Shown piece by piece: positions 29,055 through 32,995 of a stretch of 64,000 bases of DNA (its first letter is position 1; each line of letters opens with the position of its first letter). A program made the position numbers and the translations under genes. The notes below the pieces were generated by a model. It saw nothing but the letters and a program-made list of their open reading frames with translations. It did no database searches and was not told the DNA's origin. Source of the stretch: Candidatus Nomurabacteria bacterium (lineage in GTDB: Bacteria; Patescibacteriota; Minisyncoccia; Phycocordibacterales; UBA9973); assembly GCA_021413905.1 (NCBI GenBank), contig JAIOPO010000005.1, positions 2,027 through 66,026 on the forward strand. The letters run 5' to 3'.

Positions 29055-32995
<3,941 letters not shown>

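What the first reader, a model, noticed from the sequence alone, without database searches (positions are those of the whole stretch)
31280..31306. Near-identical GC-rich 27-45-nt segment in-frame in two unrelated genes (pheT and the helicase-nuclease)
ATCCCCGCCTTCTGGACGGGCAGGCTT (pheT, 31280-31306) and ATCCCCGCCTCCTCGGCGGGCAGGCTT (helicase, 38900-38926) differ at only 4 of 27 positions. The similarity extends into the GCTTTTTGA flank. Both encode KPAR-x2-GGD-K on the minus strand, and both can fold into a C-rich/G-rich hairpin (CCCGyC / GGCGGG) with a compensating wobble. The background is roughly 30% GC, so this looks like a short repeat element or gene-conversion tract that inserts or persists in-frame, comparable to Rickettsia palindromic elements, or a conserved RNA structural element in the mRNA. 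Together with the 27-bp palindrome in rnr, it suggests a family of intragenic GC-rich hairpin elements.
Basis: seen in the sequence. Interest (0 to 1): 0.6.

Follow-up and report, generated by a model that had tools for sequence, protein, structure and literature searches.

The report
Mobile 21-base hairpin inside genes
Two unrelated housekeeping genes of this Patescibacteria genome each carry the same 21-base GC-rich hairpin as a clean in-frame insertion; it is a copy of a tiny repeat that also sits inside genes of other Patescibacteria and many Bacteroidota.

Summary
Windows 31280-31306 and 38900-38926 match at 24 of 27 bases, so there are 3 mismatches, not 4. Both read K-PAR-xx-GG-D on the minus strand and both fold into a 6-bp G+C hairpin.

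The core is a 21-nt unit, CCTGCC-N9-GGCGGG (31283-31303 and 38903-38923). Both copies are clean 7-codon insertions. The nearest sequenced relative (81-86% aa identity) has empty sites in both genes.

The helicase insert is unique among 120 orthologues. The pheT insert occurs at exactly the same codon boundary in 17 of 120 orthologues, scattered over the tree, and its codons are conserved while flanking synonymous sites are saturated.

The same 21-mer (19/21 and 17/21 identity to its consensus) is dispersed in Bacteroidota and Patescibacteria. It occurs in unrelated genes, in all six frames and both orientations, in non-coding hairpin loops, and at 36 copies per 68 kb in one genome, without target duplication.

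It is therefore a REP-like miniature palindromic mobile element tolerated in frame, analogous to Rickettsia palindromic elements but about five times shorter. The mobilising enzyme is unknown, and no transposase lies in the window. The rnr palindrome is a second, unrelated family that behaves the same way.

I rate it a new variant of a known kind, of moderate to high interest.

The parts
31283..31303 (-). 21-nt hairpin element copy 1, inserted in pheT. Sequence CCTGCCCGTCCAGAAGGCGGG, encoding PARPEGG.
   Evidence: Absent from the nearest relative: L001 reads AAA AAG|GAG GGT. It matches the family consensus CCTGCCCGTCCGGCAGGCGGG at 19/21 and folds as a hairpin.
38903..38923 (-). 21-nt hairpin element copy 2, inserted in the helicase-nuclease gene. 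Sequence CCTGCCCGCCGAGGAGGCGGG, encoding PARRGGG.
   Evidence: Absent from all 119 other orthologues. The nearest relative L002 reads CAG AAA|AAT AAA. It matches the consensus at 17/21 and folds as a hairpin.
31304..31306 (-). Lys codon AAG immediately 5' of copy 1. This is target sequence, not part of the element.
   Evidence: The Lys is present in orthologues without the insert: FKK-DGK versus FKK-PASPAGG-DGK.
31280..31282 (-). Asp codon GAT immediately 3' of copy 1, also target sequence. The relative has GAG here.
38924..38926 (-). Lys codon AAG 5' of copy 2. The relative has AAA.
38900..38902 (-). Asp codon GAT 3' of copy 2. All other orthologues have Asn or His here, and the relative has AAT. 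This substitution makes the flank identical to that of copy 1.
31151..32995 (-). Host gene 1: pheT (phenylalanine-tRNA ligase beta subunit, 614 aa). The insert lies in a loop of the C-terminal FDX-ACB domain.
   Evidence: Pfam B3_4, B5, FDX-ACB 518-614. 100% match to a protein named as Candidatus Nomurabacteria PheT.
37604..40597 (-). Host gene 2: UvrD-type helicase fused to a PD-(D/E)XK nuclease (997 aa). The insert lies in a variable stretch inside the UvrD_C region.
   Evidence: Pfam UvrD-helicase, UvrD_C 320-672, PDDEXK_1. Orthologue alignment.

Best explanation
Shown. The two segments are copies of one 21-nt G+C-rich hairpin-forming unit, CCTGCC-N9-GGCGGG. Each sits as a clean 7-codon insertion, with no target duplication, in a variable loop-coding stretch of an otherwise ordinary housekeeping gene of a Candidatus Nomurabacteria (Patescibacteria) genome. 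The unit belongs to a dispersed repeat family present in many Patescibacteria and Bacteroidota, inside unrelated genes and in non-coding DNA.

Inferred. It is a non-autonomous, REP-like miniature mobile element. It is copied or moved as DNA by a trans-acting enzyme not encoded in the window. The most likely type is one that acts on single-stranded hairpins and leaves no target duplication, as the HUH/Y1 transposases of REP-RAYT and IS200/IS605 systems do.

Copies that land in essential genes survive only under two conditions. The length, 21 nt, keeps the frame. The encoded peptide must be a harmless Pro/Ala/Gly/Arg-rich loop, here PARxxGG.

In this genome the helicase copy is recent, because it is unique among orthologues. 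It probably derives from the same source variant as the pheT copy.
For: - Empty sites. The nearest relative genome has empty sites in both genes.
- Helicase. The insert is found in 1 of 120 orthologues.
- pheT. The insert is found in 17 of 120 orthologues at the same codon boundary. It is scattered on the tree, needing 15 state changes by parsimony, and the closest relatives (up to 84% identity) of nearly every carrier lack it.
- DNA-level conservation. L003 and L006 share 27/27 nt in the insert. Their flanks are only 54% identical, with third positions at 35%.
- Family membership. The window copies match the consensus at 19/21 and 17/21. The next best site in the window scores 14/21.
- Genome scan. 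The pattern AARCCTGCC-N9-GGCGGGGAT hit more than 119 loci. Hits include in-frame copies in a class I aaRS, NusB-NUDIX, MurG, ribonucleotide reductase, trigger factor, HsdS, acyl-CoA dehydrogenase, an AEP primase and LeuRS.
- Metagenome scan. The bare 21-mer hit more than 120 loci. All six frames and both orientations are used, and the two Cys-encoding frames are depleted.
- High-copy genome. One genome has 36 near-identical copies in 68 kb, mostly inside long ORFs. They have no target duplication and a weak flank consensus TTR|Y.
- Hairpin targets. Copies are found nested in the loops of other hairpins and of other copies.
- Folding. The hairpin fold is supported on both strands.
- Precedent. 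In-frame REPs have been reported in UvrD-type helicases, recBCD and tRNA synthetase genes of other bacteria (PMC3733652).
Against: - Copy number here is low. There are only two copies and no relics in 64 kb, and none in 43 kb of the nearest relative.
- No transposase, integrase or HUH domain was found among the 49 window ORFs scanned.
- The window flanks (AAG|GAT) do not fit the TTR|Y preference seen in the high-copy genome.
- Random transposition does not explain why the same pheT codon boundary is occupied in 14% of orthologues.
- Arm conservation (about 5% change) versus loop divergence (about 24%) in pheT copies could instead reflect selection on the structure.
- A subset of family members has heptamer direct repeats on both sides. 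The no-duplication model does not account for this.
- The mobilising enzyme is an inference by analogy only.
Confidence: 0.75

Rival explanations
1. Intragenomic templated copying. The pheT insert is the older, inherited copy. The helicase insert was made from it by ectopic gene conversion or a replication template switch, using 2-3 nt of microhomology (AA...AT). No transposition machinery would then be active in this genome.
For: - The two substitutions directly abutting the helicase insert make its flanks identical to those of the pheT copy (AAG...GAT). They are AAA->AAG and AAT->GAT, and the second is unique among 120 orthologues.
- Both copies share A at element position 12, where the family consensus has G.
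- The two copies lie 7.6 kb apart on the same strand.
- The window pheT copy shares the loop variant CCAGAAGGCGGG with the pheT copy of L005, which is consistent with inheritance.
Against: - The copies differ at 3 of 21 positions.
- There is no extended homology.
- At family level, hundreds of copies sit in unrelated sites with unrelated flanks. A general insertion mechanism therefore exists in any case.
- This rival concerns only how copy 2 arose. It is compatible with the main explanation.
Confidence: 0.3
2. Homing-like spread at orthologous sites. The insert moves horizontally between related lineages into the same site of the same gene. This would happen by DNA uptake and short-patch recombination, possibly driven by a nuclease that cuts empty sites. 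It would explain the same-site recurrence.
For: - Same-site, phylogenetically scattered presence with identical DNA in pheT.
- In rnr, nucleotide identity peaks at 92-97% around the palindrome and decays into the flanks. The gene-wide value is 75%. This resembles a co-conversion tract.
- The window encodes type IV pilus proteins and a ComF-like phosphoribosyltransferase-domain protein, which are candidate DNA-uptake proteins.
Against: - In pheT the identity does not extend beyond the insert plus two codons.
- Flanking DNA identity of about 54-70% is low for homologous recombination.
- No candidate nuclease was identified.
- This model cannot explain the unique helicase copy or the many unrelated insertion sites.
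Confidence: 0.2
3. A selected functional element. The hairpin would be kept because it does something for the host. Examples are an mRNA structure that modulates translation or decay, a terminator for antisense transcripts (hairpin followed by a T-run on the opposite strand in pheT), or a useful flexible peptide loop.
For: - Stems are conserved while loops drift in pheT copies.
- G+C-rich codons are maintained in genomes of 32-41% G+C.
- On the + strand the pheT copy is followed by CTTTTT.
Against: - Presence is sporadic among close orthologues.
- Family members occur in either orientation and any frame, in unrelated genes and in non-coding DNA.
- There is no Rfam match.
- The terminator scan does not call either site.
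- There are no compensatory double changes in the stems. The arms are simply invariant.
Confidence: 0.08
4. Coincidence, or a convergent protein motif: two proteins that happen to need a KPARxxGGD loop.
For: A 7-of-9 peptide match between two proteins in a window of about 20,000 codons is not rare by itself (my own estimate, not computed). Also, the unrelated motif KPAxEVGGDFYD produced false hits to the DNA pattern.
Against: - Zero expected DNA matches in shuffles.
- Identical rare codons in both copies.
- Both segments are insertions relative to orthologues.
- Both match an external 21-nt consensus at 19/21 and 17/21.
Confidence: 0.02

Closest known systems
REP / REPIN elements (repetitive extragenic palindromes) and their RAYT (Y1/HUH) transposases, including the intragenic REPs catalogued by Di Nocera et al. 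2013 (PMC3733652)
   Same: Both are G+C-rich imperfect palindromes of 20-40 nt, dispersed, and high-copy in some genomes. Neither is itself coding. REPs are sometimes found in frame inside genes, and the published examples include UvrD-type helicases, recBCD and tRNA synthetases.
   Different: This element has no terminal GTAG or CGTC tag. In the consensus, CGTC lies in the loop. In some genomes it is mostly intragenic rather than extragenic. It is shared across two phyla. No RAYT association has been shown.
Rickettsia palindromic elements (RPE)
   Same: Both are selfish palindromic DNA inserted in frame into housekeeping genes, absent from orthologues, and translated as an extra surface peptide.
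   Different: RPE-1 is about 100-150 bp and encodes tens of residues. This element is 21 nt and encodes 7 residues. The sequence family and the host phyla also differ.
IS200/IS605-type single-strand 'peel and paste' transposition and its non-autonomous derivatives
   Same: Both involve hairpin-defined DNA, insertion without target duplication, seamless empty sites, and a short motif 5' of the insertion point (TTR|Y in the high-copy genome).
   Different: Those elements have separate left- and right-end hairpins and are much longer. No Y1 transposase has been linked to this element. The window flanks are AAG|GAT.
Mitochondrial GC clusters, repetitive hairpin-forming elements and 'coding palindromes' (yeast, sponge and Nematomorpha mitochondrial genomes; e.g. 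PMC2800124, PMC6649704, seen only as titles and abstracts)
   Same: Both are short G+C-rich hairpins that spread in A+T-rich genomes and can sit inside protein-coding genes.
   Different: Those are in organelle genomes. The sequences, and probably the mechanisms, are unrelated. This is an analogy only.
MITEs
   Same: Both are small and non-autonomous, with inverted-repeat ends.
   Different: MITEs are >=50 bp and are flanked by target-site duplications. The window copies have none.

Membership tests
REP / REPIN | Short (about 20-40 nt) imperfect palindrome forming a G+C-rich stem-loop | tested here: met
   The unit is 21 nt with a 6-bp stem and a 5-nt loop. Energies are -15 to -16 kcal/mol as RNA and -8.6 to -8.9 as DNA, z about -2.2 to -2.9.
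REP / REPIN | Many dispersed copies per genome | tested here: inconclusive
   The window has only 2 copies in 64 kb, and the rest of the genome was not available. Other genomes do have many: 36 copies in 68 kb, and at least 5 hit loci on separate contigs of Pedobacter segetis SD-b (L009, L046, L050, L056, L059).
REP / REPIN | Conserved unpaired GTAG or CGTC tetranucleotide at one end | tested here: not met
   The window flanks are AAG and GAT. The general flank consensus is TTR|Y. CGTC occurs only inside the loop of the consensus.
REP / REPIN | Predominantly extragenic location | tested here: not met
   Both window copies are intragenic. 38 of 82 low-GC metagenome hits are confidently inside ORFs, and most of the 36 copies in the high-copy genome are inside long ORFs.
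REP / REPIN | Association with a RAYT (Y1 transposase) gene | not tested
   No transposase domain was found in the 49 window ORFs scanned. Genome-wide co-occurrence could not be examined.
Rickettsia palindromic elements | In-frame insertion in protein-coding genes, absent from orthologues | tested here: met
Rickettsia palindromic elements | Length of about 100-150 bp and membership of the RPE sequence families | tested here: not met
   The unit is 21 nt with an unrelated sequence. The RPE length is from established knowledge and PMC3733652.
MITE | Terminal inverted repeats plus a target-site duplication | tested here: not met
   Comparison of empty and filled sites shows a clean 21-nt insertion with no duplication. 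88 of 121 metagenome copies have no flanking repeat.
IS200/IS605-like single-strand transposition (mechanistic class) | No target duplication, and seamless empty sites | tested here: met
IS200/IS605-like single-strand transposition (mechanistic class) | Insertion 3' of a specific 4-5 nt target motif | tested here: inconclusive
   TTR|Y is enriched in one genome: -3 T in 21/36, -1 purine in 29/36, +1 pyrimidine in 35/36. The window sites are AAG|G.
IS200/IS605-like single-strand transposition (mechanistic class) | A Y1/HUH transposase acting in trans | not tested
   No candidate was identified.
Conserved protein motif (not mobile DNA) | The peptide is present in orthologues generally, encoded by varied codons | tested here: not met
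   The peptide is absent from 103 of 120 PheT orthologues and 119 of 120 helicase orthologues. Where it is present, the codons are the same.
Known structured RNA (Rfam) | A match to a curated covariance model | tested here: not met
   There was no gathering-level hit on the element in 14 element-bearing loci. Only chance-level hits (E >= 0.59) were found in window 31000-39200.

The most novel reading that the evidence does not exclude
The 21-mer, and the unrelated rnr palindrome, may be members of an undescribed class of ultra-small mobile elements shared across phyla. These elements would be written into coding DNA without target duplication. They could also return repeatedly to the same codon boundary of the same housekeeping gene in divergent lineages. 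That would imply a trans-acting, site-selective insertion or homing machinery that effectively adds 7-9-residue loops to essential proteins. Candidates are an HUH-type or a guide-directed enzyme.
Probability: 0.2. Interest if true: 0.8.

Novelty: new variant of a known kind. Interest (0 to 1): 0.6.

Why it matters
Short palindromic repeats inside genes are known from Rickettsia and a few proteobacteria. This family differs in several ways.

- It is only 21 nt long.
- It leaves no target duplication.
- It is shared between Patescibacteria and Bacteroidota.
- In some genomes it sits mainly inside open reading frames.
- It recurs at the same codon boundary of pheT in many lineages.

It offers a simple system for several questions. 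How does minimal selfish DNA invade essential genes of reduced genomes? How are 7-residue loops added to conserved proteins? What enzyme mobilises a 21-nt hairpin?

There is also a practical point. These inserts create sporadic indels in marker genes (aaRS, RNase R, helicases) used for the phylogeny of uncultured bacteria.

Tried and rejected
- **Collinear flank similarity.** Rejected. Only the 27-mer aligns.
- **Known RNA family.** Rfam at gathering threshold on 14 element-bearing loci, and at E <= 1 on the window region, gave nothing relevant.
- **Intrinsic terminator.** The consensus scan does not call either site.
- **CRISPR repeat idea.** This was prompted by ...GGCGGGGATTGAAAC in L015. 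Reading the locus shows a single intergenic hairpin inside ATTGAAA-type simple repeats, not an array.
- **Apparent restriction to one frame.** The first collection scan suggested the K-PA..GG-D frame only: 32 of 38 coding hits. This was an artefact of including AAR and GAT in the pattern. The bare 21-mer occurs in all six frames.
- **Target-site duplication.** None for the window copies. A 7-nt direct repeat flanks only 14% of metagenome copies.
- **False-positive class.** A conserved protein motif KPAxEVGGDFYD (by recall SpoIIE/PP2C-like, not checked) matches the DNA pattern in several phyla and was set aside.
- **Literature.** Searches for the exact DNA and peptide strings returned no paper. 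General searches returned only the REP/RPE and organelle analogues.
- **Mobilising enzyme in the window.** None was found.
- **23S rRNA resemblance.** A resemblance of CCTGCCCG..CCGG..GG to a conserved 23S rRNA segment came to mind. It was not tested and is not relied on.

Full report
**1. The observation.**
They differ at 3 positions, not 4. Both lie on the coding (minus) strand, in frame.

- pheT (31151-32995) reads AAG CCT GCC CGT CCA GAA GGC GGG GAT, which is KPARPEGGD.
- The 997-aa UvrD-type helicase fused to a PD-(D/E)XK nuclease (37604-40597) reads AAG CCT GCC CGC CGA GGA GGC GGG GAT, which is KPARRGGGD.

The window has 32.7% G+C. No shuffle of the window gave a second match within 3 mismatches. 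An exhaustive self-comparison found only four direct 27-mer pairs at >=24/27. The other three are A+T-rich low-complexity sequence or a short local repeat.

The similarity stops at the 27-mer. The shared GCTTTTTGA (Leu-Phe-Asp/Glu) lies at different offsets in the two genes.

It is CCCGUC/GGCGGG with a G.U pair in pheT and CCCGCC/GGCGGG in the helicase, each with a 5-nt loop. Energies are -16.2 and -15.0 kcal/mol as RNA, z = -2.6 and -2.2. The DNA folds are similar on both strands.

**2. Both segments are insertions.**
The proteins match, at 100% identity, database proteins that NCBI names as from a Candidatus Nomurabacteria bacterium.

pheT:
- In an alignment of 120 PheT orthologues, most read F-K-K-[DE]-G-K at this point.
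- Seventeen carry 7 extra residues at exactly this boundary: PASPAGG, PASSAGG, PARPEGG and similar.

Helicase:
- Among 120 helicase orthologues, only the window protein carries the extra PARRGGG.

Nearest relative:
- Assembly GCA_040384425.1 is 81% identical in PheT and 86% in the helicase. It has empty sites in both genes.
- Its pheT reads AAA AAG|GAG GGT AAG. Its helicase reads CAG AAA|AAT AAA AAT.

The inserted unit is therefore 21 nt, CCTGCC-N9-GGCGGG (31283-31303 and 38903-38923), with no duplication of the target. The flanking Lys and Asp codons belong to the host gene.

**3. The insert is DNA, not a protein motif.**
I fetched DNA for five insert-bearing pheT orthologues of about 60-66% protein identity. 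The insert keeps the same G+C-rich codons in genomes of 32-41% G+C: GCC in 6 of 6 copies including the window, GGC in 6 of 6, GGG in 5 of 6.

L003 and L006 share 27 of 27 nt across the insert and the next two codons. Their 180 nt of flanks are only 54% identical, with third positions at 35%.

The stem arms have changed at about 5% of positions and the 9-nt loop at about 24% (counted).

Carriers are scattered over a neighbour-joining tree of PheT. Parsimony needs 15 changes, with absence at the root. The closest relatives of almost every carrier lack the insert, even at 82-84% identity.

So the site either gains the insert repeatedly or loses it seamlessly and often. The data do not decide between these.
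- For recent gain: identical DNA in hosts that are only 60% identical.
- For inheritance: the window copy and L005 share the loop variant CCAGAAGGCGGG, and P0031 and P0112 share the variant LAPS...GGG.

**4. A dispersed family across phyla.**

- Besides chance hits in high-G+C genomes and a false-positive protein motif (KPAxEVGGDFYD), low-G+C genomes gave many in-frame copies. The typical sequence was AAA CCTGCC CGTCC GGCAGG CGGG GAT.
- Host genes include a class I aaRS, NusB-NUDIX, MurG, ribonucleotide reductase and trigger factor. By record title, three of these hosts are Nomurabacteria, Staskawiczbacteria and Saccharibacteria.
- Host genes in Bacteroidota include HsdS, acyl-CoA dehydrogenase, an AEP primase, LeuRS and a DUF1501 protein.
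- Pedobacter segetis carries the hairpin as the centre of a longer non-coding repeat.

*Window versus consensus.* The window copies match the consensus CCTGCCCGTCCGGCAGGCGGG at 19/21 (pheT) and 17/21 (helicase). Nothing else in the window exceeds 14/21.

- Flanks are diverse.
- In low-G+C contigs, 38 of 82 copies are confidently inside ORFs. All six frames and both orientations are used (A2 12, S0 9, A1 8, S1 4, A0 3, S2 2).
- The two frames that encode Cys are the rarest.
- The single-frame bias I saw first was an artefact of the flanks in my pattern.

*Viral contigs.* In the prophage-like regions of one genome (IMG 2820306284) there are 36 near-identical copies in 68 kb. Most are inside long ORFs, with up to five in one gene. 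They have no target duplication and a flank preference TTR|Y.

*Nesting.* Copies also sit in the loops of longer hairpins, and one sits inside the loop of another copy. 16 of 121 copies have >=6-bp inverted flanks, against 1.5% of controls.

*Unexplained.* A further 17 of 121 copies are flanked by the same heptamer on both sides, often as X X core X X. Within a gene this adds 42 nt and keeps the frame; an example is in a LeuRS gene in L201. I cannot explain these.

**5. What it most likely is and how it works.**
The anatomy is that of a REP-like miniature palindromic element. It is a 21-nt hairpin, non-coding in itself, dispersed, high-copy in some genomes, and inserted without target duplication. 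A burst of near-identical copies in one genome shows recent activity.

By analogy, the best candidate mechanism is single-strand, hairpin-directed cut-or-copy-and-paste by a trans-acting HUH/Y1-type enzyme, as in REP-RAYT and IS200/IS605. This is inference, and no such gene was found. The 49 window ORFs scanned are housekeeping, type IV pilus and two-component genes, plus several ORFs with no Pfam match.

Survival inside essential genes is explained by length (7 codons), by position in variable stretches of the orthologue alignments, and by the innocuous Pro/Ala/Gly/Arg peptide.

For the helicase copy specifically, two substitutions abut the insert. They are AAA->AAG and AAT->GAT, and the second is unique among 120 orthologues. 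Both make its flanks identical to those of the pheT copy. The two copies also share a derived A at position 12. This fits templated copying from the pheT copy, or from a common source, with microhomology. I keep it as a rival for the origin of copy 2.

A host function as an mRNA structure is unlikely, given both orientations, all frames, sporadic presence and no Rfam match.

**6. The rnr palindrome.**
The 27-nt perfect palindrome CCCCCTCTCCTT-AAT-AAGGAGAGGGGG (20254-20280) is in frame as PPLLNKERG in RNase R (19597-21609).

It is likewise sporadic among 120 orthologues and absent from the nearest relative.

It is identical at the DNA level in a 73%-identical orthologue. Nucleotide identity there peaks at 92-97% over about 30 codons, against 75% gene-wide.

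It is a different sequence family with the same behaviour.

**7. Comparison with what is known, and novelty.**
In-frame REPs have been catalogued in several bacteria, notably in UvrD-type helicases, recBCD and tRNA synthetase genes. RPE-4 and RPE-6 of Rickettsia were shown to be CGTC-tagged REPs (PMC3733652).

The present family fails the GTAG/CGTC tag criterion. It is not mainly extragenic, is far shorter than RPE-1, has no target duplication (so it is not a MITE), and spans two phyla.

Searches for its exact sequence or peptide found no paper.

I therefore class it as a new variant of a known kind, not as a member of REP sensu stricto or of RPE.

**8. Verdict.**
The mechanism of mobilisation and the cause of the same-site recurrence in pheT and rnr remain open.

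Noticed in passing
window 20254-20280 (+), inside ORF 19597-21609 (RNase R): A perfect 27-nt palindrome, CCCCCTCTCCTT-AAT-AAGGAGAGGGGG, lies in frame as PPLLNKERG. It is sporadic among 120 orthologues, absent from the nearest relative (L267), and DNA-identical in a 73%-identical orthologue (L268). Nucleotide identity spikes locally to 92-97%, against 75% gene-wide. It is a second, unrelated hairpin-insert family.
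   Followed up: partly
window 31317-31325 and 38931-38939 (+ strand TCAAAAAGC; GCTTTTTGA on the coding strand): Both host genes have the same 9-mer (Leu-Phe-Asp/Glu) upstream of the insertion point, 4 codons before it in pheT and 2 codons before it in the helicase. My rough chance estimate is about 1%. Whether it is a target cue or a coincidence is unknown.
   Followed up: no
L201 (two copies, one in a LeuRS gene at NWIGRSEG), L176, L180, L150, L194, L211, L212, L162, L151; arrays in L195 and L167: A subset of family members is flanked by the same heptamer on both sides, typically as X X core X X. That adds 42 nt and preserves the frame. Others form arrays of core + 7 nt with a period of 28. 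This might be a 7-bp target duplication amplified by slippage, or a different insertion mode. It is unexplained.
   Followed up: partly
L249-L251, L255-L257, L264, L265 (IMG/VR regions of genome 2820306284): There are 36 near-identical copies of the 21-mer in 68 kb, mostly inside long ORFs, with up to five in a single 1059-aa ORF. The flank preference is TTR|Y. This looks like a recent burst and would be a good system for finding the mobilising enzyme.
   Followed up: partly
L006 7373-7390 and L007 6024-6041 (inside pheT orthologues): A related 18-nt perfect palindrome, CCTGCCTGC(R)CAGGCAGG, encodes LPAQAG at two other positions of pheT in two lineages. The window PheT is shorter at both places. 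Several hairpin inserts can accumulate in one gene.
   Followed up: partly
L009, L046, L050, L056, L059 (Pedobacter segetis SD-b) and L098, L110, L122, L125: In Pedobacter the hairpin (loop variant CGAAWWACA) is the centre of a longer conserved non-coding repeat, ...GGATGACAAAAAAAG[core]GATGCCGCTGCTATCGTTAACGC. It is often preceded by tandem GCTCAGAGTGACAAG-like units. On the opposite strand it reads as a hairpin followed by a T-run.
   Followed up: no
window 6772-6804: A perfect 15+15 palindrome, AAACAGCCCCGCGCC-TTT-GGCGCGGGGCTGTTT, lies in the 88-nt gap between two minus-strand ORFs (5443-6723 and 6812-7111). It is probably a bidirectional intrinsic terminator. Its sequence is unrelated to the 21-mer.
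   Followed up: no
L053 714-3989 (-), a LeuRS of a Chitinophagaceae MAG: Besides the 21-nt insert, this LeuRS carries a DUF559 / REase_MTES_1575 endonuclease-like domain (residues 329-434) within the synthetase. This may be a mobile nuclease domain insertion.
   Followed up: no
RNase R orthologues P0251, P0252, P0289, P0273, P0276, P0300: At the same rnr site, some orthologues carry much longer, different inserts, for example ...NKEGVGGGNAKNHHPAYGTPPQKGGEV. The site therefore accepts repeated and nested insertions.
   Followed up: no
window 33004-33990 (-): A 328-aa ORF with no Pfam match sits between pheS (33998-34723) and pheT. In the nearest relative the same position holds a weak Fic-domain ORF and a PemK toxin gene (L001). 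The pheS-pheT spacer is a variable slot.
   Followed up: no
window 46299-57646: A cluster encodes pilin-like proteins, a prepilin peptidase, T2SS-F and T2SS-E family proteins, PilM and PilO, followed by a ComF-like phosphoribosyltransferase-domain protein. This is candidate DNA-uptake machinery and is relevant to horizontal arrival of short DNA elements.
   Followed up: no
window 36982-37010 and 37548-37590: A 23-24/27 direct and inverted repeat pair (AAATGTTATAAACTCTGCGATAGCAGA and relatives) flanks the small ORF 37050-37532, which has a PaaX-like domain. It could be an operator pair or the ends of a small cassette.
   Followed up: no
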